Assembly (NCBI GenBank): GCA_964566535.1
Contig: CAZMIO010000002.1
Coordinates: 136,905-200,904 of the forward strand
Origin: an uncultured Methanosarcinales archaeon
GTDB lineage: Archaea; Nanobdellota; Nanobdellia; Woesearchaeales; CAZOXR01
Length of the DNA: 64,000 nt
Reading direction: 5' to 3'
The position numbers were made by a program, and so were the translations under genes. Below the pieces are notes generated by a model. The model was given only the letters and a program-made list of their open reading frames with translations. It did not search any database and had not been told where the DNA came from. Shown piece after piece: positions 24,952-40,436 of this stretch (position 1 is the stretch's first letter; each line of letters opens with the position of its first letter).

Positions 24952-25038
24952 AAAATAAGAAAAGCTTTAAATAAGATAAACTCATTCCTTTTTTAAAGAT
25001 TATATTATAATTTCAGTAAATTTCATGGGGGGAAACAA

Positions 25039-27150
25039 ATGGTACAATACAAGGATAATGATGGAAATTCTAATCTACTTCAACCAATTAGAACGCTGGG
25101 CCTAGCTACAGCAGCTACAACTGCAGGCCTTATTTATCAACTTCTATCACCTCATGCTTTAGCTCAAGAAATACCTACACCTACTCCCTTACCAAACCCC
25201 GAAACAGGAGTAGACCTCTCAACAACTTTAGAAGGCCTTACTTCAAGTTATGAAAGGGTAAGAGAAAGAGCAAGAAACCTTAGAACAGAACTGGCTGAAG
25301 AAGCAGCATCAAAATTAGAAGTTGGTCCTTATGCAGGATTCTGGAACAATGCACATGTTGATGAAGATGGCAACGTTGCTGTTACAGTTGTACCTATTGA
25401 TGAGAAAGCAAGAGCAGATCCTGGTCCACAACACGTTGCGAACGGACCATCGACTTACATCGATATTGGAACTGGAACCACTAATACAAATTATGTAACA
25501 TCAGCATGGGACGATGCTCGTGGATCCCTTACATTAACCAAAACTCAAGATGATCAAAGAGTTAACGATATCGCCAAAGTTGCTGAAGCTTATGAAATAT
25601 TAACAGGTATAAAATGGGATGACCTTCAACCAGGCGATGAAGTAGTAATTTATCATTCAAGAAAAAATTACCAAGAAATGCAAGCTTCAACTGAGCTTTC
25701 ACCTGATCAAAAAGCTGCATCAACAGTAGTAAGAGATAACGCATTACAAGTTTTTCCTGCAATAAGAGAAGTATACCTTAGATCTCTAGTTGACCCAGAG
25801 GGCTCTCAAGCCCAATCAGTCGTTGATGCAGGAGAAAGAGAAAGAAGAACAAAACTTGCTTTATACGAAGCATCACCTGAACTAGCCGAATTAGTAGATG
25901 TGGTTGATGCTTATGGGGGAATCCTCAGTGATTCAAGCCAAGCAGTTAGAATTGGTGTTGACAATATTACAAGCCAAATAGCAAGTTTAGGTAGACAAGT
26001 TGCTGAAAAAGATAGACAATTAGGCGAAGCAAGTGATGCTAGTGATGAAGCCAGAAGAACAAAAGAAAGTTTAGACGAGATATTAGCAGTTGCAACTCAA
26101 AGAGCAGAAGATGCTGGAAAATTATCAGCTGACCTAGATGCTGCAAATAGAAATTTAGATTTTACTCGAAAACAACTTAGAACTACACTCTATGATTTAG
26201 GTGAAGCTGGACAAAGAGTTGAAGATTTAGAGATAGCAATTGCAGCTAAGAACCAAGCTTATGAAACAGAAAGAGCAGGTAGAGCAGACGACAAAACAGC
26301 CTACGATGCTGAAAAAGAAAGAATAGCTGAAGAACACGAAGCAGAACTCTTAGGATTAAACGGTACTCATGTTGATGAAGTTGCTGAATATCAAAAAGTT
26401 GCTAGAAGACTAATACTAAGCTTAGATGCTGCCTACACTGCACTAGGAGAAATTAAAGACGAAGGAGTAAAAGCCGATGCAGCATACAACTCACTTTTTG
26501 GGGATTATGTTTCACTCCAAATAAGAGCATTACAATTAGAAGATGAACGAGATGAAGCAGTAGCTAAAGCAGATGAAGAAGAAACAAGGCAAGCTTTAGA
26601 AATTGGAGTTAGACCAAGTTTAAATGCATTTGTAACAAACCAAGGATCAACTGGAATTGGTGGTGGTTTATCAGTTGCTAAAGGAGACCACTCTTCAATA
26701 GGCGGAAGAGTTTATAGGTTATTGCCTAATGACAGATCACATCCATTAATCCCAAATAACGCTCCAGGAGCAGATGGGGACGTCTCTAGAACAGACACTC
26801 TAACTCTAGATGGGACTGGTTACACTGGAACTTACCATAGATACTTTGGAGATGACCACGCTTGGGCATTCGGAGTAGAAGCAGGAGTTCTTGTTGGTGA
26901 TAGAACTACTGATACAGACTTCTCAGAACTGATCAGAGAAGGTAATTACACTGTTGATAACCTAAACGCAGGCACAGTAGAAAAAGACCCAGTATTAAGC
27001 AGAATTCTTGGAGCAGAGCTGCAAGGAAGAATAGGCGGAAAAACAAGCAACTGGGCAGCTAGTGTAGGAGTAAAAAGAGTTGGTGGAAGATGGGCTGGTA
27101 GCTTTGGAGTCAGTTACAGACCACAAAAAACAGTTCCAAAAAGTAGATAG
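25039..27150 (+). CDS. secreted coiled-coil protein with Gly/aromatic-rich beta-type C-terminal domain
   Basis: 703 aa, GGGGGG Shine-Dalgarno-like motif 8 nt upstream. N-terminal hydrophobic signal (LGLATAATTAGLIYQLLSPHALAQE). About 300 aa of heptad-like A/E/R/D/L-rich sequence. C-terminal about 150 aa with alternating hydrophobic/Gly pattern (HAWAFGVEAGVLVG...WAASVGVKRVGGRWAGSFGVSY). Amino-acid composition and CG-containing codons are atypical for this genome. Confidence 0.7.
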   Translation: MVQYKDNDGNSNLLQPIRTLGLATAATTAGLIYQLLSPHALAQEIPTPTPLPNPETGVDLSTTLEGLTSSYERVRERARNLRTELAEEAASKLEVGPYAGFWNNAHVDEDGNVAVTVVPIDEKARADPGPQHVANGPSTYIDIGTGTTNTNYVTSAWDDARGSLTLTKTQDDQRVNDIAKVAEAYEILTGIKWDDLQPGDEVVIYHSRKNYQEMQASTELSPDQKAASTVVRDNALQVFPAIREVYLRSLVDPEGSQAQSVVDAGERERRTKLALYEASPELAELVDVVDAYGGILSDSSQAVRIGVDNITSQIASLGRQVAEKDRQLGEASDASDEARRTKESLDEILAVATQRAEDAGKLSADLDAANRNLDFTRKQLRTTLYDLGEAGQRVEDLEIAIAAKNQAYETERAGRADDKTAYDAEKERIAEEHEAELLGLNGTHVDEVAEYQKVARRLILSLDAAYTALGEIKDEGVKADAAYNSLFGDYVSLQIRALQLEDERDEAVAKADEEETRQALEIGVRPSLNAFVTNQGSTGIGGGLSVAKGDHSSIGGRVYRLLPNDRSHPLIPNNAPGADGDVSRTDTLTLDGTGYTGTYHRYFGDDHAWAFGVEAGVLVGDRTTDTDFSELIREGNYTVDNLNAGTVEKDPVLSRILGAELQGRIGGKTSNWAASVGVKRVGGRWAGSFGVSYRPQKTVPKSR

Positions 27151-27159
27151 TAATCCAAA

Positions 27160-30100
27160 ATGAAAGTTAACAAACTATTAACAATATTACTCATAACAAT
27201 ACTAATTCTACCTACAATCTCAGCAGTTGTAACTATTGTAACAAGAACTGACGGCTTAACAACCCCAATAGATTACGGAGACCTGATCCAGTTCAAGATT
27301 AGCGGATCTACCGCTTTCAAACCAATGTACATCACAGGAACTGTACTTGATGAAAATGGAGACATCATAAAAGAATATTCTGAAACAACCCATAATTTTA
27401 ATTCAGCATTTAGATTAATAACAGTAATTCCCTCACAATACGGTCCAAGTGGAACTAAAACATTTGTCGGTACAATAAGAGATGAAAGAGGATTCAGCAA
27501 AACAGATACTTTAGAATTTGTAGTTAACGAAGCAGCTCCTGTCCTTGACCTAAATATTCCAGATCAAACACTAGAGGAAGACACTACAATCACATTCAAC
27601 CTTCTTGACTATTTCTCAGATCCAGACAGAGATGACTTAACATTCTCAATAGGTTCAATAAATGATATGACAGTGAGTATTGTTAATGATAAAAACTCAC
27701 CAGTCTATGGACAAGTCACAATCCAACCAGATTCTAACTGGAATGGTCAAAAAACAAATACATTCATGGCTTCAGACGGAACATTATCCACTCAAAGCAA
27801 CCTAGTAACAATAACCGTTACCCCAGTTAATGACCAACCCCAAGGATTTACAGTTGTAGAAGATACTGATGAAGACACTCCAATTACAATCACCTTGGAT
27901 ACTTTAGAAGTCGATGAAGAAGATACATTAACATGTTCAATCATTAGCATTTGGGGTGCAACTGAAACAGAAAATTGTGTTTGTGATGATGAAAATATTT
28001 GTACAGTTGAATTAACACCAAATCAAGACTCAACTGATAATGTTATAGCATTTTACCAACTTAATGATGGTCATGTTGACTCAAACTTCGATCGTATTTA
28101 CGTTACAATAAACGCGATCAATGATGCTCCTGTTGCTAATGACATTTCAGAAACTACTGATGAAGATACTTCAAAAGAATTCCACTTAGATTGTTCAGAT
28201 GTTGACCAGAATTCCCTTACTTACCATATTGTAACAGATCCAACCTCAGGCAGCATAATCAAAAGTGGAAAAAAGGTAACTTATACACCTAACCAAGACT
28301 ATAATGGAGACGACTCATTTACATATAAATGTAATGATGGTACAGTTGATAGTAATGAACCAACAGTAACCATTAACATCATCCCAGCAAACGATCCTCC
28401 AACAACAACTGATGACGAACTAATAGTTGATGAAGACTCAACAAGCAACATTATTAGAGTCTTACTAAATGACGATGATATCGATATTGTTGATGGAGAC
28501 GAAATCCACATAGAAGACTTTACTCAACCAGAGGATGGGACAGTCACAAGATATATGGACAACCTCTACTACACTCCAGATGGGGATTTTAATGATGAAG
28601 ACAGCTTTACTTATACTATCGATGACTTAGCTGGAGAGACAGCAACCGCAACAGTCACAGTTACTGTAAATGCAAAAAATGACCCGCCAGTTCCAGATGC
28701 ATTAGATGAAGAAGTTGATGAAGATGATTCTGTCGATATTACTTTAAGCTGTACAGATATTATTGATGGAGATACTGAATTTTCTTATTCAATTAAAAAT
28801 AATCCAGATAAAGGAACATTAAGCACAATTAGTGGCAGCTCAGTTACTTACACTCCAGATCCAAACTGGAATGGACTAGATACATTTACTTACGAATGTA
28901 ATGATGGCACAGTTGATAGCAGTAATGCAGCAACAGTTTCAATAACAATTAATGCTATTAATGATGCCCCAGTAGCTGCAGATGTTGATGGCACAACAAC
29001 AGATGAAGATGTGCCAGTTGACATAACTTTAAGTTGTACAGATCTTATTGATGGAGCTACTGAGTTTACTTACTCTATTGCAAACCAACCAGCAAAAGGA
29101 ACATTAAGCCTAGAAAATAATCTAGTTACATACATTCCAAATTATAATGAAAATGGAGCCGATCTTTTCACCTACAGATGTAATGATGGAATTGACAGCG
29201 AAAACGCAGCATCAGTACCAATAACAATTAACCCAATTAATGATGGCCCTACTGCTAACGATGACACAGCCACAACTGATGAAGACATACCAGTCAAAAT
29301 TGAAGTTTTAGCTAATGATGAAGATCCAGATATTATTAATGGAGATGTCCTGACAATTACCTCTGTAACAATCCCACGGTCTATTGAAGACTATTACTCA
29401 CACGGAAGCACAGTTTTAAGTGAAGACAGTAAATCCATAACCTTCACCCCTGGAGAAGACATCGATGATGATATGTATTTTGATTATGCCATCACAGACG
29501 GTAGTGGAGAAACAAGCACTGCTAGAGTTATTGTAACTGTCAATGCAATTAATGATGCTCCACATGCTAGAGATTTCGAAGAAGACGTAATTGAAGATAC
29601 TCCTAGAACATTTGCTATTACATGTGGAGACACTGATAGTTCTTTCACAAAAACAATCTTAGATGAAACAACACACGGAACTGCTATAAAGAACCAAGAT
29701 AATGGATTTTATACCTACACCCCTAATGAAAATTACTTTGGAACTGACTTCCTAACCTTCCAATGTTCAGATGACGAATTCAATAGTGAAGTAAAAACAG
29801 GAACATTCACTATTCAATCTGTAAATGACGCTCCAATTCTAACTGAAATAGGAAATCAACACGCAGAAGAAGGAGACTTAATTGAGTTTACATTAGATTA
29901 TGATGATGTTGACACTGAAGATACCCTAACTTGCTCAGCTGAGAACCTCCCAACAGGATCTAGCTTCGATGAATCGGCATGTACATTCACATGGCAAACA
30001 GGATTCGGGGATGAAGGAACTTATGAAGATGTAACATTTACAATTACTGACAATGGAGATCCAATAAGCTCAGACAATGAGGCTATTACAATAACTGTAG

Positions 30101-33100
30101 GAGATGTTAATAGGCCCCCAGTAGCAGATGATTTAACTACAACTGTTGATGAAGATCTTTCAGTGGATATTGATTTATCATGTACTGATCCTGATGGAGA
30201 TTCAGTAACTTACACGGTATCTAACCCACCTCAAGGTAGTTTAACAGAAGTAGACAGCGATACTGTCAGCTACACACCAACCGCTGACTATCACGGTTCA
30301 GACACTTTCGAATACAAATGTTCTGATGGAGAGCTAGATAGTGAACGTGTTGATGTAGATATAACAATCAACTCAATTAATGATGATCCGGAAATTGATG
30401 CCCTAACAGCAACTGTTGATGAAGATCTTTCAGTGGATATTGATTTATCTTGTACTGATGCTGATACCGAAGATACATTAACTTACACGGTATTCAACCC
30501 ATCTGAAGGAAGTTGGGTAGCAGTAGACAGCGATACTGTTACATACACACCCGATGCCGATTACCAAGGAACTGACACTTTCAATTACCAATGTAATGAT
30601 GGAACTGTAGATACTGAACAAGCAACAGTTTCAATAACAATAAACTCAGTTAACGATGCCCCAATATTAGATGCGATAGGAAACAAAAGAATTGAAGAAG
30701 GAGAATTATTAGAATTCGCATTAAGTTATTCAGATGTTGACAGCACAGGCCTTACCTGTTCAGCTGAAAACTTACCAACTGGATCCAGCTTCGACGAATC
30801 TGCATGTACATTCTCATGGCAAACAAATTTCGGAGACGAAGGTACTTACAGAGATGTAACATTCACAGTTTCTGACGGAGCTTTATCAGCAAGTGAAGCA
30901 ATTACAGTAAGAATCGGAGACGTCAACAGACAACCAATAGCAAACGGTTTAACTCCTTCTGTTGATGAAGATCGTTCAGTTGATATTGACTTATCATGTT
31001 CAGATCCTGATGGAGATTCAGTAACTTATACCTATTTCCGAGATTCACTTATACATGGAACCCTAACAGAAGTAGACATCAACACACTGACATACACGCC
31101 AACTTCAGATTATCATGGTTCAGACTCTTTCGAATACAAATGTAATGATGAGGAGCTAGATAGTGAACGTGTTGATGTAGATATAACAATCAACTCAGTT
31201 AATGATGCGCCAACTCTAGCTAAGATTGGAAATCAACATGCAGAAGAAGGAGAATCAATTGAATTTACCTTGGATTATAATGACATTGACAGTACAGGCA
31301 TTACTTGTTCAGCTGAAAACATACCAGCTGAATCTAGCTTCGATGAATCAGAATGTGCCTTCTCATGGCAAACTAACTTCGGAGATGAAGGAACTTATGA
31401 AGATGTAATATTTGCAGTTTCTGATGGAGCTTTATCAGCAAGTGATTCAATTACAATAACAGTAGGAGATGTTAACAGAGCTCCAACAGCTGATGACTTA
31501 ACAACAACTACAGATGAAGATACCTCAGTCGATATTGATTTATCCTGTACAGATCCAGATGGAGATTCAGTAACTTACACAGTATTTGATCCATCTGAAG
31601 GAAGTTGGGGAGAAGTAGATAGCGATACTGTTACATACACACCTAATGGTGATCATTTCGGAACTGATAAATTTGAGTACAAGTGTAATGATGGAACAAC
31701 AGACAGCCCAAATGCTGATGTTGACATAACCATAAACTCAATTAATGATGCTCCAGTATTAGATGAAATAGGAAACAAGAGAGTTGATGAAGGAGAATTA
31801 CTAGAATTCACATTGAGCTATACAGATGCTGAAGGTGATGATATCACTTGTTCAGCTGAAAACTTACCAACTGGATCTAACTTTGATGAACCAACATGTA
31901 CATTCACATGGCAGACAGTGTTCGAAGACTTTGGAACTTACGAAGATGTAACATTCACAATAACTGATGATGGCAACCCAAGAGAATCAGACAGCGAAGC
32001 TATTATTATAACAGTAGGAGACATCAATCAACAACCAACAGCTGATGACTTAATTCCTTCTGTTGATGAAGATAATTCAGTTGATATTGATTTATCATGT
32101 ACAGACCCTGATGGAGATTCAGTAACTTATACATATTTTTCAGATTCAATTCTACATGGAACTTTAACAGAAGTAGACACCAACACAGTAAGATACACTC
32201 CCACCGGTGGTTATCACGGTTCGGACTCATTCACATACAAATGTAATGATGGGGAACTAGACAGTGATCGTGCTAGTGTGGACATAACAATCAACTCAGT
32301 AAATGACGCACCTGTTTTATCTGCAATAGGTCCTAAATCAACAAGTGAAAATACTTTACTCACATTCACAATATCAGCAACTGATTCAGATAGCAGCACA
32401 TTAACATACTCTGCTTCAAACCTACCATCAGGAGCATCATTTGATTCTTCAGCAAGAACATTCTCATGGAGACCAGGATTTAGCGATTCCAGAACTTATA
32501 CTAAAGTAAAATTTACAGTTACAGATAACGGAAATCCCACAAAATCGGACAGTGAAGAGATTACAATTACAGTTAATAATGTAAATAGAAGACCAACAGC
32601 AGATGACTTAACTACGTCAACAAGTGAAGACAGTTCAAAAGAAATTACATTATCTTGTTCAGATGCCGATGGAAACTCATTAAGCTACATAAGAGTCTCA
32701 GGTGTAAGTCATGGTTCACTTAGTACTATCAATGGGAATAAGGTAACTTACTCGCCTAGTTCAAACTACCATGGTTCGGACTCATTCACATACAAATGTA
32801 ATGATGGAACTGTAGATTCAAATACTGCAACTGTAATCATTACAGTCAATAGCAGAAATGATGCTCCTTCAGCAAGAAATATACAAGAATCAACCAACGA
32901 AGACATTTCAAAAGAGATTACATTAAGCTGTTCAGATGCTGACAGTAACTCATTAGATTATATCAGAGTTTCAGATGTAAGTCATGGTTCACTTAGTACT
33001 ATCAATGGGAATAAGGTAACTTACTCGCCTAGTTCAAACTACCATGGTTCGGACTCATTCACATACAAATGTAATGATGGAACTGTAGATTCAAATACTG

Positions 33101-34884
33101 CAACTGTAAGCATTACAGTCAATAGCAGAAATGATGCTCCTTCAGCAAGAAATATTCAGAAAAGTACTAATGAAGACACTTCAGTTAACGTAGATTTATC
33201 ATGTTCAGACCCAGATGGAGATTCAGTAAGATTTAACGTAAGAAACCCATCAGATGGTTCAGTATCAGAAGTAAACGCAAATACAGTAAGATATACACCA
33301 AACACGGACTACCATGGCACAGACTCATTCACTTACACCTGCTCAGATGGAAGTTTAAGTGACGATGCAAAAGTAGACATAACAATAACTCCAGTTAACG
33401 ACGCCCCTAATGTTAAAAACATCCCAGATCAAACAATTAATGAAGGTGAAACTTTTGATAATATTCCATTAAATGATTTTATAGAAGAATATGATGGAAG
33501 TGACATAATCTGGTCCTATGATGGAAACTCAGAACTTACAGTTGAGATTAACTCAAACAATGTTGTAACAATCTCAACTCCACATAATAACTGGAATGGC
33601 GCAGAAACAATAACATTTACTGCAACTGATGATAACGAAGCTGCTTTATCAGATTCAGACTCAGCAACATTTACAGTTACAAGTGTAAATGATGTTCCAA
33701 CAGCTGAAGATATTGATAAAGAAACAGAAGAAGACACTCCAATTGACATAACATTAAGCTGTTCAGATGACGATACTGATGACACATTAACTTATACAGT
33801 ATTTGAACCGTCCCATGGAACATTAACAGATATCGAGGGGATAGACAAAGTAAGATATACTCCCCACCTTAACTTCAACAGTGATGAAGAAGACTCGTTC
33901 CAATACAAATGTAAAGACAGTTCTGATGAAGAAAGCAACACTGCAACAGTATCTATATTAGTAACCCCAGTAAACGACGCCCCAATATGGAAACCCCTTC
34001 CAGCTGCAGACTTAGATGAAGATTTTAAAACCTTTACACATATCAAAGACCTGAGTGAATATACCACTAATCCAGATAAAGACGAAACATTAACATTCTC
34101 AATAACCAAAGAAGACAGAAGAAAAGTAGACTGCAGAATAGATGATAATAAACTAATCCTAAGATCAATAAAGAATTGGCATGGAACAACAACATGTACT
34201 ATCAAAGCTGATGATAACGAAGGAAAAGAAAGCGAAACCACATTAACTATCAATGTAGGAGAAGTCAACGACGGACCAACCCTAAACCCAATCGGTCCAA
34301 AATCAATAAAAGAAGACCAAACACTTACATTTAGAGTATCAGCAACAGACCCAGATGGAGACAAACTAACCTTCACCACATCTAAACTCCCAAAAGGAGC
34401 TAGTTTCAACCCAGCAACAAAAACATTCACCTGGAGGCCAACATTCCAGCAATCTGGAACTTACTCAGTCACATTCACAGTTTCAGATGGACTATTATCA
34501 GATTCAGAAACAGTTCAGATAAAAGTGGGAAACATATTCAGACAAAGCAAACTATCCATTGAATCAGTAAGGGTTCCAAGCAACCCAAGTTCTTTCGTAG
34601 GCTCTGGATTCATGCCAGTGGAACTGTCAATGTCAAATACTGGAAGTATCTCAGTTAAGAACACAATGATTTCAGTTGGACTATTCGACCAAGAATTCGA
34701 CTTAGAATCACAACCAACAAGAGTATCATTAAGGGTTCCAAAAGGAAAATCAACCAAAAAAACAGTTTACATAGAACTCCCAGATGACATTGAGTTCGGA
34801 AAAGAATACTTCATCAACATAGTCTCAAGAGATTCATATACTAAAGACTCAATCACAGTACCTATCTTCTTTGAACAGATTTAA
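27160..34884 (+). CDS. giant secreted adhesin-like protein (2574 aa) built from alternating cadherin-like (..VNDAPV..) and dystroglycan-type cadherin-like/Ig-like domains
   Basis: N-terminal signal peptide (LLTILLITILILPTISAVV), no C-terminal TM. More than 20 tandem domains of about 90-95 aa with motifs TYTP..DY.G.D.F.Y.C.DG..DS..A.V.I.I..VNDAP alternating with APIL..IGN...EG..L.F.L.Y.D.D....TCSAENLPTGS.FDE..CTF.WQT.F.DEGTY.DV.F.V.DG. Starts 9 bp after the upstream coiled-coil gene. Confidence 0.9.
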   Translation: MKVNKLLTILLITILILPTISAVVTIVTRTDGLTTPIDYGDLIQFKISGSTAFKPMYITGTVLDENGDIIKEYSETTHNFNSAFRLITVIPSQYGPSGTKTFVGTIRDERGFSKTDTLEFVVNEAAPVLDLNIPDQTLEEDTTITFNLLDYFSDPDRDDLTFSIGSINDMTVSIVNDKNSPVYGQVTIQPDSNWNGQKTNTFMASDGTLSTQSNLVTITVTPVNDQPQGFTVVEDTDEDTPITITLDTLEVDEEDTLTCSIISIWGATETENCVCDDENICTVELTPNQDSTDNVIAFYQLNDGHVDSNFDRIYVTINAINDAPVANDISETTDEDTSKEFHLDCSDVDQNSLTYHIVTDPTSGSIIKSGKKVTYTPNQDYNGDDSFTYKCNDGTVDSNEPTVTINIIPANDPPTTTDDELIVDEDSTSNIIRVLLNDDDIDIVDGDEIHIEDFTQPEDGTVTRYMDNLYYTPDGDFNDEDSFTYTIDDLAGETATATVTVTVNAKNDPPVPDALDEEVDEDDSVDITLSCTDIIDGDTEFSYSIKNNPDKGTLSTISGSSVTYTPDPNWNGLDTFTYECNDGTVDSSNAATVSITINAINDAPVAADVDGTTTDEDVPVDITLSCTDLIDGATEFTYSIANQPAKGTLSLENNLVTYIPNYNENGADLFTYRCNDGIDSENAASVPITINPINDGPTANDDTATTDEDIPVKIEVLANDEDPDIINGDVLTITSVTIPRSIEDYYSHGSTVLSEDSKSITFTPGEDIDDDMYFDYAITDGSGETSTARVIVTVNAINDAPHARDFEEDVIEDTPRTFAITCGDTDSSFTKTILDETTHGTAIKNQDNGFYTYTPNENYFGTDFLTFQCSDDEFNSEVKTGTFTIQSVNDAPILTEIGNQHAEEGDLIEFTLDYDDVDTEDTLTCSAENLPTGSSFDESACTFTWQTGFGDEGTYEDVTFTITDNGDPISSDNEAITITVGDVNRPPVADDLTTTVDEDLSVDIDLSCTDPDGDSVTYTVSNPPQGSLTEVDSDTVSYTPTADYHGSDTFEYKCSDGELDSERVDVDITINSINDDPEIDALTATVDEDLSVDIDLSCTDADTEDTLTYTVFNPSEGSWVAVDSDTVTYTPDADYQGTDTFNYQCNDGTVDTEQATVSITINSVNDAPILDAIGNKRIEEGELLEFALSYSDVDSTGLTCSAENLPTGSSFDESACTFSWQTNFGDEGTYRDVTFTVSDGALSASEAITVRIGDVNRQPIANGLTPSVDEDRSVDIDLSCSDPDGDSVTYTYFRDSLIHGTLTEVDINTLTYTPTSDYHGSDSFEYKCNDEELDSERVDVDITINSVNDAPTLAKIGNQHAEEGESIEFTLDYNDIDSTGITCSAENIPAESSFDESECAFSWQTNFGDEGTYEDVIFAVSDGALSASDSITITVGDVNRAPTADDLTTTTDEDTSVDIDLSCTDPDGDSVTYTVFDPSEGSWGEVDSDTVTYTPNGDHFGTDKFEYKCNDGTTDSPNADVDITINSINDAPVLDEIGNKRVDEGELLEFTLSYTDAEGDDITCSAENLPTGSNFDEPTCTFTWQTVFEDFGTYEDVTFTITDDGNPRESDSEAIIITVGDINQQPTADDLIPSVDEDNSVDIDLSCTDPDGDSVTYTYFSDSILHGTLTEVDTNTVRYTPTGGYHGSDSFTYKCNDGELDSDRASVDITINSVNDAPVLSAIGPKSTSENTLLTFTISATDSDSSTLTYSASNLPSGASFDSSARTFSWRPGFSDSRTYTKVKFTVTDNGNPTKSDSEEITITVNNVNRRPTADDLTTSTSEDSSKEITLSCSDADGNSLSYIRVSGVSHGSLSTINGNKVTYSPSSNYHGSDSFTYKCNDGTVDSNTATVIITVNSRNDAPSARNIQESTNEDISKEITLSCSDADSNSLDYIRVSDVSHGSLSTINGNKVTYSPSSNYHGSDSFTYKCNDGTVDSNTATVSITVNSRNDAPSARNIQKSTNEDTSVNVDLSCSDPDGDSVRFNVRNPSDGSVSEVNANTVRYTPNTDYHGTDSFTYTCSDGSLSDDAKVDITITPVNDAPNVKNIPDQTINEGETFDNIPLNDFIEEYDGSDIIWSYDGNSELTVEINSNNVVTISTPHNNWNGAETITFTATDDNEAALSDSDSATFTVTSVNDVPTAEDIDKETEEDTPIDITLSCSDDDTDDTLTYTVFEPSHGTLTDIEGIDKVRYTPHLNFNSDEEDSFQYKCKDSSDEESNTATVSILVTPVNDAPIWKPLPAADLDEDFKTFTHIKDLSEYTTNPDKDETLTFSITKEDRRKVDCRIDDNKLILRSIKNWHGTTTCTIKADDNEGKESETTLTINVGEVNDGPTLNPIGPKSIKEDQTLTFRVSATDPDGDKLTFTTSKLPKGASFNPATKTFTWRPTFQQSGTYSVTFTVSDGLLSDSETVQIKVGNIFRQSKLSIESVRVPSNPSSFVGSGFMPVELSMSNTGSISVKNTMISVGLFDQEFDLESQPTRVSLRVPKGKSTKKTVYIELPDDIEFGKEYFINIVSRDSYTKDSITVPIFFEQI
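32704..33166 (+). repeat. near-identical 273-bp (91-aa) tandem duplication inside the giant adhesin gene
   Basis: About 190 bp are identical or almost identical between 32704-32893 and 32977-33166 (gtaagtcatggttcacttagtactatcaatgggaataaggtaacttactcgcc...). Other domain copies are diverged at DNA level (e.g. 30141 vs 30411). Confidence 0.6.
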
Positions 34885-34974: not shown

Positions 34975-37194
34975 ATGGTACAAATAAAAGACTTCGAACC
35001 TAGACTTTACCAGGAAACTATCTTCTCAACCTGTACTAAAAAGAATTCATTAGTTATCCTCCCAACAGGAATGGGTAAAAGCTTTCTATTCGTAATGTTA
35101 GCAGCACATAGACTTAACCATTACCCTAACTCAAAAATATTAATCCTAGCTCCAACAAAACCATTAGCTGACCAGCACATAACCGTCCTAAAAAAACACC
35201 TAGACATAGACCCCAAACAAATTGTTCTTTTCACAGGTCTCATAAAGCCAGAAAAAAGAGCAGAGCTATGGAAAGACGCAAAGATAATTATCAGCACACC
35301 TCAAGGATTAGAAAACGACATCCTAACAAAAAGAATTAACTTAGAAGAAGCATCATTACTAGCATTCGATGAAGCACACCATGCAGTAGGAGATTATTCT
35401 TACGTTTTTGTTGCATCACAATACCAAAAAAAAGCAAAGTATCCAAGAATCCTAGCACTAACAGCATCACCAGGCTCAGACATGGATAAAATAAAAGAAG
35501 TTTGTAAGAACCTTTATGTTGAAGAAGTTGAAGTAAGGACAGATGAGGACCCTGATGTAAAACCATACGTCCAAGAAGTAAAAACGGAGTGGCTAAAAGT
35601 TACTCTTCCCCCACCGTTCCATGAAGTCCAAAAACATATCAAAAACTTCCTTAAAGACCGCTTAGAAAGATTAAGAAATTGGGGAGTCCTCCAAAAAAAT
35701 GACTTAGAATTTGTAAGTAAAAGAGACCTCTTAGCATTACAAGCACAACTAAGAGGAAGAGCAGCATCTGGTGAACGCGATTCCACAGTGTGGACATCAA
35801 TCTCAGTTCTAGCAGAAATAATGAAAATGCAGCATGCATTAGAACTATTAGAAACACAAGGCATTGCCCCACTATACAAATACTTAAAGAAAATGCAGGC
35901 AGAATCAATAACAACAAAAGTAAAAGCAGTAAAGAACATTGTAAGAGACTTAAACTATCGAACTGCATTGATACAAACTGAGAAACTGCACAATGAAGGA
36001 ATAGAACATCCAAAATTAGTTGAACTCCAAAAGATAGTTGAAAAAGAAATCAAAGCAGACCCTAACTTTAAAACATTAATCTTCAACCAATACCGAGATA
36101 ACGCATTAGATGTTGAAGAAAAAATAAATAAAATACCAGGAATAAGAGCAAAAATATTCGTTGGCCAGGTAAAAAAAGGAGATACAGGCTACAGCCAAAA
36201 ACAACAAAAAGAAATTCTAGACAAATTCAGAACAGGAGAATATAATGTTCTAGTCTCAACATCAATAGGAGAAGAAGGCCTAGACATTGTAGCAGTTCCC
36301 CTAGTCATGTTCTACGAACCAATACCTTCAGCAATTAGAACCATCCAAAGAAGGGGCCGTACAGGAAGACAAGAAAAAGGCCGCGTTATCATTTTAATGG
36401 CAAGTAACACAAGAGATGAAGGCTACAGATGGTCAGCCCACCACAAAGAAAAACGGATGTATAGAAATCTCTACGAACTAAAAAACAATATAAAACTAGT
36501 ACTCCAAAAAGTTGAAAAAAAACTAGACGATTACTTAACACCTGAAAAAAAGCATAAGATCTTTGCAGACCATAGAGAGAAAGGCTCAAAATTAATAAAA
36601 GAATTAGTTGACAAAGGCCATGATTTAATTTTAGAACAACTTGAACATGCAGACTTCCTACTAAGCTCAAGAGTAGGAGTAGAATTCAAGACAGTTGAAG
36701 ACTTCATCAACTCAATAATAGATGGCAGACTTTTATTACAAGTAAAAAACCTAAAAGCAAACTTTGAAAGACCATTAATCATGATTCAAGGACAAGACGA
36801 CATCTACTCAGTAAGAAACATCCACCCAAATGCAATAAGGGGTATGCTCTCAACAATAACAATCTCTTATGGAATCCCAATCATCCAAACAAAAGACTTC
36901 AGAGAATCTGCCGCCCTAATGGGAATAATCGCAAAAAGAGAACAAGAAGAAACATCATCTGACTTCACACCACATTCCGAAAAGAGAGCATTCTCAATAA
37001 AAGAGCAGCAAGAATACATAATCTCTTCATTCCCAGGAGTAGGCATGACATTAGCAAAACCACTCTTAAAAAAGTTCAAATCAATAAAAAAGATAGTAAA
37101 TGCAAAACAAGAACAACTAGAAAAGATAGCAAAGATTGGTCCTAAAAAAGCAGAATCGATTAGAAAAGTTTTGGATAGTGAATACGACTCTTAA
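34975..37194 (+). CDS. hef: Hef helicase-nuclease (SF2 helicase + ERCC4 nuclease + HhH2)
   Basis: 739 aa. Walker A PTGMGKS, DEAH box FDEAHHAV, helicase C motifs (QRRGRTGR). C-terminal ERCC4-type nuclease and GVGMTLAKPLLKKF helix-hairpin-helix. Confidence 0.8.
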   Translation: MVQIKDFEPRLYQETIFSTCTKKNSLVILPTGMGKSFLFVMLAAHRLNHYPNSKILILAPTKPLADQHITVLKKHLDIDPKQIVLFTGLIKPEKRAELWKDAKIIISTPQGLENDILTKRINLEEASLLAFDEAHHAVGDYSYVFVASQYQKKAKYPRILALTASPGSDMDKIKEVCKNLYVEEVEVRTDEDPDVKPYVQEVKTEWLKVTLPPPFHEVQKHIKNFLKDRLERLRNWGVLQKNDLEFVSKRDLLALQAQLRGRAASGERDSTVWTSISVLAEIMKMQHALELLETQGIAPLYKYLKKMQAESITTKVKAVKNIVRDLNYRTALIQTEKLHNEGIEHPKLVELQKIVEKEIKADPNFKTLIFNQYRDNALDVEEKINKIPGIRAKIFVGQVKKGDTGYSQKQQKEILDKFRTGEYNVLVSTSIGEEGLDIVAVPLVMFYEPIPSAIRTIQRRGRTGRQEKGRVIILMASNTRDEGYRWSAHHKEKRMYRNLYELKNNIKLVLQKVEKKLDDYLTPEKKHKIFADHREKGSKLIKELVDKGHDLILEQLEHADFLLSSRVGVEFKTVEDFINSIIDGRLLLQVKNLKANFERPLIMIQGQDDIYSVRNIHPNAIRGMLSTITISYGIPIIQTKDFRESAALMGIIAKREQEETSSDFTPHSEKRAFSIKEQQEYIISSFPGVGMTLAKPLLKKFKSIKKIVNAKQEQLEKIAKIGPKKAESIRKVLDSEYDS

Positions 37195-38051
37195 ACCTGC
37201 ATACTTCTCAATCTCTCAACACGAGTCTTAATTGGAGGGTGTGTCATAAATAAACTTACAAAGCCCCCTCTTCTAAATGGATTCACAATAAACAAATGAG
37301 CAGTGGTCTGTGTTGTACTAGTAACCTTAAACGGATGATGAACAATAGCAGTATCTAACTTCTCAAGAGCACTTGCCAAACCTTGTCCATTATGTAAAAT
37401 CTTAGCAGCAGACTCGTCAGCCAAAAACTCCCTACTTCTAGAAATAGCCAACTGAATCATTGTAGCCAATATAGGAGTTAGTATAGCTAACACCAATAGC
37501 TCAGCTCCAGAACCACCATCCCTGTCCCTACCACCAAAACCACCAAACATAGCAGCCCATCTAGCCATAAAAGCAACATATGAAATAACTCCAGCAATAG
37601 TTGCAGCAATAGATTGAATTAAAGTATCCCTATTCTTAATATGACTCATCTCATGAGCAATAACTCCCTTAAGCTCATCCTCACTAAGTAAATCTAATAT
37701 CCCTTGTGTACATGCAACAGCTGCATGCTCAGGATCTCGTCCCGTAGCAAAAGCATTCGTATTATCACTAGGCATAATATAAACCTTAGGCATAGGAATA
37801 TTAGCCAAATGAGCAACATCTCTAACAACCTTAAACAACTTAGGAGCATCACTTTCCTTAATTTCCTTAGCCTTATACATAGCAAGAACTAACTTATCAG
37901 AAAACCAATAAGAACCAAAATTCATAACAACAGAAAACACCAAAGCAATCGTCAGACCCTGCATCCCACCAACCGCATTACCAACCCACAACAATAGCCC
38001 AGTCAATAAACCAAGTAACGCTACAGTCCTTATTTGATTACCAGTCCCCAT
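37191..38051 (-). CDS. htpX: HtpX-family zinc metalloprotease (M48)
   Basis: HEXXH motif HEMSHIKNRD with TM helices. The track ORF (to 38267) has a 72-aa low-complexity N-terminal extension overlapping the divergent gene. I start at internal ATG 38049-38051 (MGTGNQIRTVALLGLLTG...), giving a typical 286-aa HtpX. Overlaps the hef stop by 4 nt (convergent). Confidence 0.75.
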   Translation of the reverse strand: MGTGNQIRTVALLGLLTGLLLWVGNAVGGMQGLTIALVFSVVMNFGSYWFSDKLVLAMYKAKEIKESDAPKLFKVVRDVAHLANIPMPKVYIMPSDNTNAFATGRDPEHAAVACTQGILDLLSEDELKGVIAHEMSHIKNRDTLIQSIAATIAGVISYVAFMARWAAMFGGFGGRDRDGGSGAELLVLAILTPILATMIQLAISRSREFLADESAAKILHNGQGLASALEKLDTAIVHHPFKVTSTTQTTAHLFIVNPFRRGGFVSLFMTHPPIKTRVERLRSMQV

Positions 38052-38163
38052 AAGAAAAAAGAACAGAATAAGATATATAAAAGTTTGTATAATAAAAAAA
38101 ATAAACACCACTTCAACTCTAAAATAAAGATTTTTAAATTGATAAATACTACTCAATTGAACT

Positions 38164-39114
38164 ATGAATATCCCAAAATCATTTATACCTGAAATTACAA
38201 GAGACCCAACATTATTTGAATTAGTAGACTGGGGCACAGATATAGAATTAACTTCCCTCCATGACATGTATGTTGTTAAAGGTCATGAACTAGTCCTAAC
38301 TAAAATGAGAGAATATGGTGTACGTATAGCCTCTCTCCCAGAACTAGTACTTGCTAGAATTAATAATTTTGGTGTTGATAAATTTATTCCAGAACATTGG
38401 CGCTATCATTTTCAGAGAGATAGAACGGTTTGGGATCATTGGTTTACTGCAAACTCAGAAATAGATACTGGCTCAGATCATGAAGGAAGATTTACTAGAG
38501 AGGGAGGATTAGTAAATATTATAGTACATGGTGGAGGCATTCTAACACCAGATATATTTGGTGAAATTAGGACGAGTAAATTAACCAAACAAGATCCTGT
38601 TGCAGTAGAAATTGATCAGGAGACCATCACAAAACTTTTGGCAGAAGAGCACCCCGATGGTGGACACATACCAGTGTATGGATACGATGATTTCTGTGAT
38701 GTATCTGCTGATTCACGTTTTTTAGTAGACAACCCTCGATTTGCAGTAGTACTTCCGTTCGAAACATTTGACAGATATCCATCTCAGGATTATCAAGTAA
38801 GTCAAGCATACCACCATCCATTAATGGTTGTATATGCAGGAGGTGTAGAACAAGCTGCCAAATATCTAGATAGATTTAAAGAAAGAGAGGGAGAGGATAC
38901 ATTTGCACTACGTCATCCATTTGCATTCCCAATCCGGCCAATTAAAGGATTCGATAAATCTATCCCTCAAGGAAGGTATCTTTCATTAGGTCAAATATAT
39001 TATCAAGGAATCGATGCAACAATTGGTGTTGACTACTCAGGAAACTTCTTACTAGTGAGGCCCAATCGTACCCTTTTACATCCAGGCCTGGCTGAATTAC
39101 AATTTGTTTCATAA
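38164..39114 (+). CDS. hypothetical protein (compositional outlier)
   Basis: 316-aa ORF, ATG start. W/H/R/D-rich with low Lys. Uses CG-containing codons (cgt, cga, cgg, ccg, acg) that are rare elsewhere in the window. No family recognised. Confidence 0.55.
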   Translation: MNIPKSFIPEITRDPTLFELVDWGTDIELTSLHDMYVVKGHELVLTKMREYGVRIASLPELVLARINNFGVDKFIPEHWRYHFQRDRTVWDHWFTANSEIDTGSDHEGRFTREGGLVNIIVHGGGILTPDIFGEIRTSKLTKQDPVAVEIDQETITKLLAEEHPDGGHIPVYGYDDFCDVSADSRFLVDNPRFAVVLPFETFDRYPSQDYQVSQAYHHPLMVVYAGGVEQAAKYLDRFKEREGEDTFALRHPFAFPIRPIKGFDKSIPQGRYLSLGQIYYQGIDATIGVDYSGNFLLVRPNRTLLHPGLAELQFVS

Positions 39115-39706: not shown

Positions 39707-39753
39707 AATATCACCTCTTACTATTAACTACTTAAACTATATAAACATTATCA

Positions 39754-40413: not shown

Positions 40414-40436
40414 TTTAATTATCCTCCTTAAACATT

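What the first reader, a model, noticed from the sequence alone, without database searches (positions are those of the whole stretch)
25039..34884. Compositionally atypical two-gene secreted module: coiled-coil/beta-domain protein plus 2574-aa cadherin-like giant protein, directly downstream of the N-glycosylation operon
The two genes are 9 bp apart on the same strand as the aglB-GT2-DUF2304-GT4-cupin operon. Gene 1 (703 aa) has a signal peptide, about 300 aa of heptad-like A/E/R/D-rich sequence, and a Gly/aromatic-rich C-terminal domain whose amphipathic beta-strand pattern resembles bacterial outer-membrane/autotransporter-type barrels. Gene 2 is a giant repeat adhesin with no membrane anchor of its own. 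Both genes are noticeably GC-richer and use CG-containing codons that are rare in the rest of this window, which suggests acquisition or strong selection. A plausible hypothesis is that the pair forms a stalk-plus-fibre cell-surface or host/partner-attachment apparatus, analogous to giant adhesins of episymbiotic archaea or bacterial T1SS adhesins but with an unknown export and anchoring route. No such paired architecture is a named archaeal system to my knowledge.
Basis: partly seen in the sequence, partly recalled or inferred. Interest (0 to 1): 0.7.

Follow-up and report, generated by a model that had tools for sequence, protein, structure and literature searches.

The report
Archaeal coiled-coil partner plus glycan-free giant adhesin
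A tiny marine archaeon (Woesearchaeota) carries a native, tightly coupled gene pair, an orphan coiled-coil protein and a 2574-residue cadherin-like fibre that has lost every N-glycosylation site, and the same pairing recurs in a distant archaeon, so it is probably a real but uncharacterised cell-surface attachment module and not a foreign island.

Summary
The two ORFs exist as described: 25039-27150 (703 aa) and 27160-34884 (2574 aa), 9 nt apart, downstream of aglB-GT2-DUF2304-GT4-cupin.

Gene 2 is a tandem-95/Big_9/cadherin-like giant with one N-terminal hydrophobic segment and no C-terminal anchor.

Gene 1 matches no Pfam, NCBIfam, PHROG or PDB entry. An exhaustive phmmer search found only fragments at 65% identity or more.

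The composition claim fails. The higher GC comes from codon positions 1 and 2. GC3 is the lowest in the window, CG codons are not enriched, and codon choice is native.

The beta-barrel idea could not be tested, because AlphaFold gave pLDDT 30-40.

New results:
- The pair, with the same spacer, recurs in a TARA relative.
- A gene of the same architecture, marginally similar in sequence, sits directly upstream of the giant that shares gene 2's end caps in a GC-51% archaeon.
- Gene 2 has 0 N-x-S/T sequons against 39 expected, while 119 homologues have a median observed/expected ratio of 1.2. A likely S-layer glycoprotein in the same window has 118.

Best reading: a conserved surface-adhesion pair with a deliberately unglycosylated fibre. 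The role of gene 1 is only inferred.

The parts
24966..24973 (+). TTTAAATA, an archaeal TATA-box-like element in the 87-nt gap between the cupin gene and gene 1. It is followed by a T6 run (24989-24994) and a second AT-rich TATA-like stretch (24999-25010). This suggests the pair has its own promoter, separate from the aglB operon.
   Evidence: Read directly from the sequence. The gap is identical in three metagenomic copies. Promoter function is inferred, not tested.
25027..25032 (+). GGGGGG, a Shine-Dalgarno-like run 6 nt upstream of the gene 1 ATG.
   Evidence: read from the sequence.
25039..27150 (+). Gene 1: 703-aa orphan protein (NCBI MDP7179642.1, 'hypothetical protein', Candidatus Woesearchaeota archaeon).
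   Evidence: ORF. Under purifying selection, dN/dS 0.31-0.37 against the TARA relative. No Pfam, NCBIfam, PHROG or PDB match. Only 3 fragment hits among 1.84e9 representatives. The exact protein occurs on 12 marine contigs.
25093..25167 (+). Gene 1 residues 19-43: a moderately hydrophobic Ala/Thr/Gly-rich segment (TLGLATAATTAGLIYQLLS) followed by PHALAQ. It is either a cleavable Sec signal (A-x-A) or a weak N-terminal signal anchor.
   Evidence: KD19 maximum 1.13. The L035 homologue has the equivalent segment (KD 1.67) and a similar Y-x-Q-x-x-x-P-x-L-x-A stretch. No signal-peptide predictor was available.
25168..25206 (+). Gene 1 residues 44-56: Pro/Thr-rich linker (EIPTPTPLPNPET).
25219..25806 (+). 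Gene 1 residues 61-256: N-terminal helix (61-92, heptad-positive) plus a mixed alpha/beta domain. This is the only part with measurable sequence similarity to the L035 protein.
   Evidence: BLASTP 22% identity over residues 33-272, E 1e-4 pairwise. Smith-Waterman z 7.5 against shuffles. Top non-self hit among 993 ORF fragments. hhalign gave no support.
25807..26607 (+). Gene 1 residues 257-523: about 265-residue helical region, A/E/D/R-rich, Pro-free from 281 to 525, with heptad-positive segments 277-337 and 446-496. It is a coiled coil or helical bundle, up to about 39 nm long if a single extended rod.
   Evidence: AlphaFold2 helices 257-278, 280-330, 336-414 and 419-523, with block-mean pLDDT mostly 54-77 over about 280-450. 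Composition. Heptad scan. Only coiled-coil noise in SMC and PDB matches.
26608..27117 (+). Gene 1 residues 524-693: Gly/aromatic-rich domain predicted to be beta-rich, fold unknown. It carries a sequon (N636, NYT) that is conserved as NYS in the relative, and the motif N-A-G-T-V-E-K-D-P-V, which the L035 protein shares as N-P-G-T-T-E-R-D-P-V.
   Evidence: AlphaFold2 pLDDT 30. No Pfam match, including OMP families, at E<=10.
27118..27147 (+). Gene 1 residues 694-703: basic C-terminal tail RPQKTVPKSR. It is identical in the TARA relative and matched by ...HPAGKKVPKQK at the C-terminus of the L035 protein, giving the shared pattern K-x-V-P-K-x-[KR]-COOH.
27151..27159 (+). 9-nt spacer between the gene 1 stop codon and the gene 2 ATG. 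The relative L034 has a spacer of the same length; the L035 pair overlaps by 4 bp instead.
27160..34884 (+). Gene 2: 2574-aa acidic giant repeat protein (D+E 19.4%, K+R 4.9%, 40 Cys). It has about 25 Ig-like domains of about 91-97 aa separated by (V/I)-N-(D/R/Q)-x-P linkers, and zero N-x-S/T acceptor sequons.
27160..27225 (+). Gene 2 residues 1-22: strongly hydrophobic Sec-type signal peptide (or N-terminal anchor), ending ...PTISA|VV.
   Evidence: KD19 2.74, the only hydrophobic segment in the protein.
27226..27534 (+). Gene 2 residues 23-125: N-terminal cap domain. It is very strongly conserved (90% identity, dN/dS 0.065 against the relative) and shared only with the L035 giant P0060.
   Evidence: Smith-Waterman z 5.8. 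Absent from the other 118 homologues. No Pfam match.
27535..34539 (+). Gene 2 repeat body: tandem-95/Big_9/Cadherin_4/Cadherin_5 domains interleaved with six He_PIG domains. It includes recent internal duplications at 32626-33155 (273-nt unit, 93% identical) and 30140-30658 (77%).
34540..34881 (+). Gene 2 residues 2461-2574: C-terminal cap, weakly CARDB/NPCBM_assoc-like. It has no TM helix, PGF-CTERM or RTX signal, and P0060 shares it weakly.

Best explanation
This is a native and probably well-expressed bicistronic cell-surface module of a marine Woesearchaeota (DPANN) archaeon.

Gene 2 is exported through Sec. It forms a long Ca2+-type cadherin-like fibre of about 25 tandem Ig-like domains, which would be roughly 100 nm if extended, and it serves attachment to a partner cell or a surface. 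Selection has kept it completely free of N-glycosylation acceptor sites, so it stays 'naked' on a cell whose main envelope protein is heavily glycosylated.

Gene 1 is a member of a new, fast-evolving protein family. Its order of parts is: N-terminal export or anchor segment, Pro/Thr linker, alpha/beta domain, about 250-residue coiled coil, Gly-rich beta domain, conserved basic tail. It is co-translated with the fibre and most likely acts as its structural partner, that is, a stalk or base that holds or presents a fibre which has no anchor of its own.

Shown: the gene structure, the domain families of gene 2, native codon usage, conservation of the pairing, and the sequon depletion.

Inferred: export of gene 1, physical interaction between the two proteins, the anchoring role, and host attachment.
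For: Gene structure and tight coupling.

Gene 2 family membership.

Native composition, with bias towards preferred codons (AGA 0.88, GAA 0.89; GC3 0.179 and 0.230).

The organism is a Woesearchaeota/DPANN archaeon. The relative comes from a TARA 0.1-0.22 um size fraction.

The pair is conserved:
- L034 keeps the junction and the spacer length.
- L035 has a 669-aa protein of the same architecture overlapping the start of a 3029-aa giant.
- N-domain similarity: z 7.5, BLASTP E 1e-4, rank 1 of 993 ORFs.
- The C-terminal tail and a motif are shared.
- Both proteins have Pro-free helical cores of 245-256 residues.
- The two giants share N- and C-caps that 118 other homologues lack.

Gene 2 has no anchor other than its signal segment, whereas other surface proteins in the window carry C-terminal TM anchors.

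Sequons: 0 observed against 39.4 +/- 5.2 expected. D/E/K/G/Q-x-[ST] run at 21-27%, and the only four N-x-S/T are N-P-S/T. The 119 homologues have an observed/expected median of 1.21 and a minimum of 0.49. ORF 4605-10133 has 118 sequons against 43 expected, which shows that N-x-S/T is the sequon this organism selects for.
Against: - There is no direct evidence that the two proteins interact.
- Gene 1's N-terminal segment is a weak signal (KD 1.13), so export is not certain.
- Homology between gene 1 and the L035 protein is marginal (31.6 bits; hhalign probability below 1%). The wider conservation therefore rests on one locus plus architecture.
- Three other giants' loci (L036-L038; domain and taxon not established) lack a gene-1-like neighbour.
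- Woesearchaeal relatives with conserved Hef-M48 have neither gene upstream of Hef.
- The L035 giant is not sequon-depleted (ratio 0.79), so glycan avoidance is not a property of the module as such.
- The structures of gene 1's N and C domains are unknown.
Confidence: 0.5

Rival explanations
1. Gene 1's C-terminal Gly/aromatic domain is a membrane-inserting beta-barrel or beta-anchor. This is the first reader's idea, by analogy with trimeric autotransporter anchors or OmpM/SlpA-type proteins (coiled coil plus barrel). It would sit either in an outer sheath of the archaeon or in the host's membrane, and the coiled coil would span the gap.
For: - The sequence pattern has alternating hydrophobic and small residues, for example HAWAFGVEAGVLVG, NWAASVGVKRVGG and RWAGSFGVSY. 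The L035 protein shows the same kind of pattern.
- Even the poor AlphaFold2 models place two beta-hairpins there.
- Gene 1 has no TM helix that could otherwise anchor it.
Against: - No OMP, autotransporter or YadA-anchor family matches, even at E<=10.
- The models have pLDDT 30.
- As general knowledge, archaea have no BAM-type insertase and no verified beta-barrel membrane protein.
- The protein ends in a 10-residue basic tail, not an aromatic beta-signal.
- Amphipathic beta-strands are equally typical of soluble beta-sandwiches.
- The conserved sequon N636 lies inside the domain.
Confidence: 0.12
2. Gene 1 is an export, folding or assembly helper for the giant, and not a structural stalk. The analogues would be TpsB in two-partner secretion, or the coiled-coil membrane-fusion protein of type I secretion.
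For: Gene 1 is upstream of and translationally coupled to the giant in two lineages. It combines a coiled coil with a beta domain.
Against: - Gene 2 has its own classical N-terminal Sec signal and no RTX or TPS domain.
- Gene 1 has no POTRA, ShlB or HlyD match.
- No ABC transporter lies nearby.
- Its strongly preferred codon usage suggests abundance more typical of a structural protein.
Confidence: 0.12
3. The two genes are merely neighbours. Gene 1 is an unrelated secreted or cytoplasmic coiled-coil protein, and the apparent conservation with L035 is coincidence.
For: Sequence similarity to the L035 protein is marginal. Only one distant locus shows the pairing.
Against: - The coupling is a 9-nt spacer or a 4-bp overlap.
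- The L035 ORF was the best non-self hit among 993 ORF fragments, and it is exactly the one ORF adjacent to the cap-sharing giant.
- Length, domain order, C-terminal tail and motif are shared.
- The two genes have the same codon-bias class.
Confidence: 0.15
4. The pair is a horizontally acquired island, or the S-layer pair of this organism (analogous to SlaA/SlaB), which would explain its position after the glycosylation operon.
For: Total GC is slightly higher than in the neighbouring genes. The pair is adjacent to aglB. The combination of a coiled-coil protein with a large anchorless protein recalls SlaB/SlaA (general knowledge).
Against: - GC3 is the lowest in the window, CG codons are not enriched, and codon choice is native.
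- A much better S-layer candidate lies at 4605-10133: signal peptide, 118 sequons, Thr/Pro linker, C-terminal TM helix and a basic tail.
- Gene 2 has no sequon at all.
- Gene 1 has no C-terminal TM helix, unlike SlaB.
- aglB adjacency is absent in L035/L039.
Confidence: 0.05

Closest known systems
Bacterial tandem-95 / Big_9 / Cadherin_4-5 giant adhesins (NCBIfam NF012211; for example in Vibrio, Mycobacterium, Paenibacillus and Patescibacteria)
   Same: Gene 2 is a clear member. It has 20-25 repeat matches and thousands of homologues at about 30-37% identity. It is acidic, has paired Cys, and has N-D-x-P type linkers.
   Different: - It is archaeal.
- Its N- and C-terminal caps are shared only with one archaeal protein.
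- It has no RTX, T9SS, LPXTG or TM sorting element.
- It has zero N-glycosylation sequons, against a family median observed/expected ratio of 1.21.
- It has a dedicated upstream coiled-coil partner.
Sulfolobales S-layer pair SlaA/SlaB (general knowledge)
   Same: The adjacent genes encode a large anchorless outer protein and a smaller coiled-coil 'stalk' protein, both exported in an archaeon.
   Different: - SlaB is anchored by a C-terminal TM helix. Gene 1 has none.
- S-layer proteins are heavily N-glycosylated. Gene 2 has no sequon.
- There is no sequence similarity.
- A separate S-layer candidate exists in the window.
Trimeric autotransporter adhesins and OmpM/SlpA-type tethers (signal peptide, head or SLH domain, coiled-coil stalk, C-terminal beta-barrel; general knowledge)
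   Same: Gene 1 has the same order of elements: export segment, globular domain, long coiled coil, C-terminal Gly/aromatic beta-rich domain.
   Different: No YadA_anchor, SLH or OMP domain was detected. The organism is an archaeon without a known outer membrane or BAM. The beta domain could not be modelled. The protein ends in a basic tail.
Giant surface proteins of other DPANN archaea (SPEARE-type proteins of nanohaloarchaea; PMC10266531)
   Same: These are very large Ig-like-repeat ectodomain proteins in ultra-small, host-dependent archaea. They are proposed to bind the host, and they sit in variable genome regions.
   Different: According to PMC10266531, those proteins are 8,880-9,409 aa, membrane-anchored, and carry a VirB4/TraG-like ATPase domain. 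Gene 2 has no TM helix beyond its signal segment and no ATPase domain. Instead it has a separate coiled-coil partner gene.
Two-partner secretion (TpsB/TpsA) and type I secreted RTX adhesins (LapA, SiiE; general knowledge)
   Same: A giant adhesin is encoded next to a protein of about 600-700 aa that contains a beta domain and/or a coiled coil.
   Different: There is no POTRA/ShlB, TPS, HlyD, ABC or RTX domain. Gene 2 uses an N-terminal Sec-type signal.

Membership tests
Tandem-95 / Big_9 / cadherin-like repeat adhesins (gene 2) | Multiple tandem domains of about 95 aa matching NF012211, PF17963, PF17803 and PF17892 | tested here: met
   NF012211 7.5e-264 with 25 stretches. Big_9 1.8e-252 (20), Cadherin_4 9e-180 (21), Cadherin_5 1.5e-170 (18).
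Type I secreted RTX adhesins (gene 2) | C-terminal RTX nonapeptide repeats or T1SS signal, no N-terminal signal peptide, and linked ABC/MFP genes | tested here: not met
   No HemolysinCabind hit. A strongly hydrophobic N-terminal signal is present. No ABC or HlyD genes were found in the neighbourhood.
Archaeal S-layer glycoprotein (gene 2) | Many N-x-S/T sequons and a C-terminal TM or PGF-CTERM anchor | tested here: not met
   0 sequons against 39 expected. No C-terminal hydrophobic segment. ORF 4605-10133 meets both criteria instead.
DPANN SPEARE-type giant proteins (gene 2) | Membrane-spanning segment followed by a cytoplasmic VirB4/TraG-like ATPase domain (PMC10266531) | tested here: not met
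   No ATPase domain among the Pfam hits. No internal or C-terminal TM segment.
Trimeric autotransporter adhesin (gene 1) | C-terminal YadA-like membrane anchor domain (PF03895) | tested here: not met
   No Pfam hit to the C-terminal 174 aa at E<=10 apart from a spurious 'E+ motif' match.
Trimeric autotransporter adhesin (gene 1) | Coiled-coil stalk preceding the anchor | tested here: met
   Helices span residues 257-523. The stretch 281-525 is Pro-free and contains heptad-positive segments.
OmpM/SlpA-type outer-membrane tether (gene 1) | N-terminal SLH domain and a C-terminal porin-like beta-barrel | tested here: not met
   No SLH or porin family hit. The barrel fold itself could not be tested because the model pLDDT was 30.
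Sulfolobales SlaB-like S-layer stalk (gene 1) | C-terminal transmembrane helix after the coiled coil | tested here: not met
   No segment with KD19 >= 1.6 anywhere in gene 1. The C-terminus is a hydrophilic basic tail.
Two-partner secretion TpsB (gene 1) | POTRA domains plus a 16-strand ShlB-type barrel, and a TPS domain in the substrate | tested here: not met
   No such Pfam or NCBIfam hits in gene 1 or gene 2.
Horizontally acquired genomic island (both genes) | Synonymous-site composition or codon usage deviating from the host genome | tested here: not met
   GC3 is 0.179 and 0.230, at the low, native end. CpG observed/expected is 0.40 and 0.46. CG codons are 0.9-1.0%. Codon log-likelihood relative to the rest of the window is +0.091 and +0.049. 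Only the 64-kb window was available, not the whole genome.
New 'gene-1 family' (gene 1 plus MFH1849041.1 of L035) | Proposed here: export segment, alpha/beta N domain, a Pro-free coiled coil of about 250 aa, a Gly-rich beta domain, a K-x-V-P-K-x-[KR]-COOH tail, and a position immediately upstream of a capped tandem-95 giant | tested here: inconclusive
   All architectural features are shared. Sequence support is modest: BLASTP 31.6 bits, shuffle z 7.5, rank 1 of 993 ORFs. hhalign was negative. There are only two lineages.

The most novel reading that the evidence does not exclude
The pair is a dedicated DPANN host-attachment apparatus in which gene 1 trimerises or dimerises through its coiled coil. 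Its C-terminal Gly/aromatic domain would be a self-inserting beta-barrel-type anchor, in the symbiont's envelope or in the host's membrane, and it would present a deliberately glycan-free cadherin-like fibre. That would be the first beta-barrel-type membrane anchor described in Archaea, and a new class of archaeal cell-cell adhesion machinery.
Probability: 0.1. Interest if true: 0.85.

Novelty: new variant of a known kind. Interest (0 to 1): 0.55.

Why it matters
How ultra-small DPANN archaea attach to partner cells is largely unknown, and marine Woesearchaeota are uncultured.

This locus offers a concrete two-protein candidate that can be tested:
- a giant adhesin of a known repeat family;
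- a previously unrecognised partner family that recurs in a distant archaeon.

The complete removal of N-glycosylation sequons from a 2574-residue exported protein, in a cell that packs 118 sequons into its probable S-layer protein, is a clean signature of selection. It implies that the fibre must be glycan-free to work. To my knowledge, and in the papers I could search, this has not been described for archaeal surface proteins.

It also gives a simple computable criterion, sequon-rich against sequon-free secreted giants, for sorting 'coat' proteins from 'binding' proteins in uncultured archaea.

Tried and rejected
1. The search for homologous proteins with full gene 1 returned nothing, not even the query itself, because the 8000-candidate word filter was saturated by the coiled coil. 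With the C-terminal 184 aa it found only the TARA fragment P0003.
2. Exhaustive phmmer over 1.84e9 representatives found only 3 fragments at 65-100% identity.
3. The search for related loci with gene 1 found nothing in genome contigs, metagenome contigs (twice, once with a degenerate alignment) or viral contigs. Alignment A1 was too gappy to seed patterns.
4. AlphaFold2 on full gene 1 as a single sequence gave pLDDT 40.5. On the C-terminal 189 aa with a 3-row alignment it gave pLDDT 30. Both were unusable.
5. Pfam, NCBIfam, PHROGs and PDB sequence and profile searches on gene 1, its sub-domains and the L035 homologue gave only coiled-coil noise: SMC, ODF2, and a designed SARS-CoV-2 HR1 mimic at 4.6e-5.
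6. hhalign of the gene 1 alignment against the L035 protein gave probability below 1%.
7. Synteny through Hef: 24 Woesearchaeota/Nanoarchaeota loci keep Hef-M48, but none has gene 1, gene 2 or the aglB operon upstream.
8. Neighbourhoods of three other giant homologues (P0009, P0082, P0051) have no gene-1-like gene.
9. No paralogue of gene 1 exists in the window or in the loci.
10. Literature searches for a named system or for sequon avoidance in archaeal adhesins found nothing specific.
11. Rejected ideas: the HGT island, the S-layer pair, T1SS/TPS, and a class III (pilin-type) signal in gene 1, because no [KR]-[GA] cleavage motif precedes the hydrophobic segment (read).


Full report
**Observation**

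The window has ORFs at 25039-27150 (+, 703 aa, 'gene 1') and 27160-34884 (+, 2574 aa, 'gene 2'), separated by 9 nt.

Upstream on the same strand lie:
- a long STT3/AglB (18886-22428);
- GT2;
- DUF2304;
- GT4;
- a cupin (to 24951).

Downstream lie a Hef-type helicase-nuclease (DEAD/Helicase_C/ERCC4/HhH) and, on the opposite strand, an M48 peptidase.

**Organism**

Hef relatives at 51-67% identity all come from Woesearchaeota/Nanoarchaeota MAGs. NCBI holds the exact gene 1 protein as MDP7179642.1, a hypothetical protein of a 'Candidatus Woesearchaeota archaeon'. The exact gene 2 protein lies on a 221,641-bp contig, the longest contig also recorded for gene 1's cluster.

The exact gene 1 protein occurs on 12 marine metagenomic contigs, including TARA, always with the same neighbours. 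This is a marine DPANN archaeon with about 35% GC.

**Composition**

The claim of atypical composition does not survive.
- Gene 1's total GC of 0.402 is matched by ilvD (0.407). It is produced by GC1 0.58 and GC2 0.45, that is, by an Ala/Asp/Glu/Arg/Gly-rich, Lys-poor amino-acid composition.
- GC3 is 0.179 for gene 1, the lowest of 42 ORFs, and 0.230 for gene 2. CpG observed/expected is ordinary.
- CG-containing codons make up 0.9% and 1.0% of codons, about the window median. Arg is 88% and 79% AGA, and Glu is about 90% GAA.
- Both genes fit the window's preferred codons better than their amino-acid composition predicts (+0.091 and +0.049). These values are among the highest in the window.

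This is the signature of native genes that are probably well expressed, not of acquired genes. Only the 64-kb window could be used as background.

**Gene 2**

It is an unambiguous tandem-95/Big_9/Cadherin_4/Cadherin_5 giant with six He_PIG domains.
- 21 (V/I)-N-(D/R/Q)-x-P linkers are spaced 90-104 residues apart.
- It has 40 Cys, mostly in regularly spaced pairs.
- D+E is 19.4%, against K+R at 4.9%.
- Two internal duplications are recent; one is 93% identical.
- Its only hydrophobic segment is the N-terminal signal (KD 2.74). There is no C-terminal TM helix, RTX element or sortase-type element.
- The closest database proteins other than itself are at most 37% identical and are mostly bacterial.

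**Gene 1**

It matches nothing in Pfam, NCBIfam, PHROGs or PDB beyond coiled-coil noise. A full phmmer scan of 1.84e9 representatives gave three fragments only, at 100%, 65% and 80% identity, all TARA.

Its parts are as follows:
- a weakly hydrophobic N-terminal segment (KD19 1.13) ending in A-L-A-Q;
- a Pro/Thr linker;
- a helix plus an alpha/beta domain, to about residue 256;
- a helical region of about 265 residues, Pro-free from 281 to 525, with heptad-positive stretches;
- a C-terminal domain of about 170 aa with 16% Gly;
- a basic tail, RPQKTVPKSR.

AlphaFold2 modelled only the helices, with block-mean pLDDT mostly 54-77 there. The full model had pLDDT 40.5, and the C-terminal domain run with a 3-row alignment had pLDDT 30. 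The proposed outer-membrane-barrel resemblance is therefore neither supported nor refuted. No OMP or autotransporter family matched even at E<=10.

**Is the pairing real?**

Two independent observations say yes.

*First, the TARA relative.* In the only sequence relative (TARA_037 mesopelagic, 0.1-0.22 um fraction), the 3' end of the gene 1 homologue (80% identity) is followed, after a 9-nt spacer, by a gene 2 homologue whose first 190 residues are 90% identical. Gene 1 evolves several-fold faster (dN/dS 0.31-0.37) than the gene 2 N-terminal cap (0.065).

*Second, the L035 locus.* I inspected the neighbourhoods of four gene 2 homologues. The one labelled 'archaeon' is P0060 (3029 aa, GCA_043823195.1, locus GC 51%). 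It is preceded by a 669-aa gene that overlaps its start by 4 bp. That protein (MFH1849041.1) has the same order of parts as gene 1:
- an N-terminal hydrophobic segment followed by a similar Y-x-Q-x-x-x-P-x-L-x-A stretch;
- an N domain that aligns colinearly with gene 1 (22% identity, BLASTP E 1e-4 for the pair; Smith-Waterman z 7.5 against shuffles);
- a 256-residue Pro-free heptad region;
- a Gly-rich beta-type C-terminal domain containing N-P-G-T-T-E-R-D-P-V (gene 1 has N-A-G-T-V-E-K-D-P-V);
- a C-terminus ...KKVPKQK (gene 1 has ...KTVPKSR).

When gene 1 was compared with 993 ORF fragments from all fetched loci, this ORF was the best non-self hit (E 0.034). hhalign, with almost no alignment depth, gave no support, so I treat the homology as probable and not proven.

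The two giants also share an N-terminal cap (z 5.8) and, weakly, a C-terminal cap (p about 0.01). None of the other 118 homologues has either cap.

Three other loci (L036-L038) have no gene-1-like neighbour. Woesearchaeal relatives that conserve Hef-M48 carry neither gene upstream of Hef.

**Relation to the glycosylation operon**

The 87-nt gap before gene 1 contains TTTAAATA, a T6 run and a second TATA-like stretch, followed by a G6 Shine-Dalgarno-like run. The pair therefore probably has its own promoter. The L035/L039 pair is not next to aglB.

More tellingly, gene 2 has no N-x(not P)-S/T sequon, although it has 173 Asn and 24% Ser+Thr.
- Shuffles expect 39.4 +/- 5.2, and no shuffle out of 300 reached zero.
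- S/T at position +2 follows D, E, K, G or Q in 21-27% of cases.
- The only four N-x-S/T are the non-acceptor N-P-S/T.
- This is not a property of the repeat family. The 119 homologues have an observed/expected median of 1.21 and a minimum of 0.49.

In the same window, ORF 4605-10133 (-) (1842 aa, no Pfam hit) has 118 sequons against 43 expected. It also has a signal peptide, a Thr/Pro-rich linker, a C-terminal TM helix and a basic tail, which is the classical layout of an archaeal S-layer glycoprotein. Gene 1 is neutral, with 3 sequons against 3.7 expected. One of them (N636) is conserved in the relative.

I infer that the organism's AglB uses N-x-S/T, that gene 2 passes the glycosylation machinery, and that selection removes every acceptor site from it. 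This is strong indirect evidence that gene 2 is exported and must remain glycan-free to function. The L035 giant is not depleted (ratio 0.79), so this is a lineage-specific trait.

**Mechanism (inferred)**

Gene 2 is a Sec-exported, Ca2+-type, rod-like adhesin of about 25 Ig-like domains. Assuming about 4 nm per domain (a general figure for Ig-like domains), it would be about 100 nm long and would project beyond a glycosylated S-layer. It lacks its own anchor, whereas the other surface proteins here have C-terminal TM anchors.

Gene 1 is co-translated with it, conserved as its upstream neighbour, and built like a stalk. It is the best candidate for the element that holds or presents the fibre.

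Two topologies remain open:
- The N-terminal segment acts as a signal anchor, with the C-terminal beta domain distal.
- The signal is cleaved, and the C-terminal beta domain plus basic tail associates with the envelope or a membrane.

Rivals are that gene 1 is an assembly or export helper, that its beta domain is a true membrane barrel, or that the linkage is coincidental. The HGT-island and S-layer-pair readings are rejected.

**Comparison with known systems**

Gene 2 is a member of the tandem-95 adhesin family. It is not a T1SS RTX adhesin, not an S-layer glycoprotein, and not a SPEARE-type DPANN giant. The SPEARE-type proteins are TM-anchored and carry a VirB4-like ATPase domain (PMC10266531).

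Gene 1 resembles trimeric autotransporters, OmpM/SlpA tethers and SlaB in layout only. Each family's defining domain was tested and not found.

No named archaeal system with this pairing was found in the searchable literature.

**Verdict**

This is a real, native, conserved two-gene surface module with a new partner protein family and a striking sequon-free giant. The function of gene 1 and the beta-barrel idea remain open.

I rate it a new variant of a known kind (a giant adhesin plus an accessory protein), with interest 0.55.

Noticed in passing
window 4605-10133 (-): An 1842-aa ORF with no Pfam hit. It has an N-terminal signal, 118 N-x-S/T sequons against 43 expected (62% of its Asn), a Thr/Pro/Glu-rich linker, a C-terminal TM helix and a KKKH tail. 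It is probably the heavily N-glycosylated S-layer or envelope glycoprotein of this Woesearchaeon, and the natural substrate of the nearby aglB operon.
   Followed up: partly
window 18686-18839 and 57252-57274: A palindrome-containing repeat (GATTTTTGAGYATGCTCRGAAAT) lies in the aglB upstream region. Two copies are 54 nt apart, and a degenerate third (19-nt core, 79%) lies at 18821-18839. A fourth copy (3 mismatches) is at 57252 in another intergenic region. Zero matches are expected by chance. It may be a transcription-factor site or a small repeat element.
   Followed up: partly
window 18886-22428 (+): AglB is unusually long (1180 aa), and the STT3 domain starts only at residue 287. The N-terminal extension was not examined.
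   Followed up: no
window 12244-14424 (-) and 14529-15905 (-): Two more envelope proteins carry CARDB/NPCBM_assoc/FixG_C-type Ig-like domains and TM anchors. The 458-aa one also has 0 sequons (2.5 expected) and the strongest preferred-codon bias in the window.
   Followed up: no
whole window (ORF table): Lys content separates predicted extracytoplasmic or membrane proteins (2.5-4% Lys: gene 1, gene 2, the 1842-aa protein, the M48 peptidase, the TPM protein) from most cytoplasmic ones (8-15% Lys). ORF 38164-39114 (3.5% Lys, no signal, no Pfam hit) is an exception.
   Followed up: no
L001, L004, L005, L006 (contig ends): Independent metagenome assemblies of the same population break at the end of gene 1 or within the first 200-460 codons of gene 2. 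This is presumably because of the internal repeats, so the full-length gene 2 sequence rests on few assemblies.
   Followed up: no
window 37191-38267 (-) / 38164-39114 (+): The called 5' ends of the M48 peptidase and of the divergent 316-aa ORF overlap by about 100 nt. Homologues of M48 align only from about residue 26-77, so its true start is probably further downstream along the gene. The Hef-M48 pair is conserved across Woesearchaeota loci.
   Followed up: no
window 39128-41195 (-): The 192-aa ORF looks LemA-like, and the adjacent 252-aa ORF looks like a TPM-domain protein with a Gly-rich C-terminal tail. Both identifications are by eye from the sequence and were not confirmed by a family search.
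   Followed up: no
window 47339-52434 and 60784-62421: These are branched-chain amino-acid biosynthesis genes: LeuA/HMGL-like, the acetolactate synthase large subunit, and ilvD. Such biosynthetic capacity is more than is usually assumed for DPANN archaea.
   Followed up: no
L039 278-2545 (-): In the GC-51% archaeon, a 755-aa T2SSE-type secretion/pilus ATPase and a 715-aa unannotated protein lie about 7.5 kb upstream of the gene-1-like/giant pair. Any relevance to the pair is unknown.
   Followed up: no
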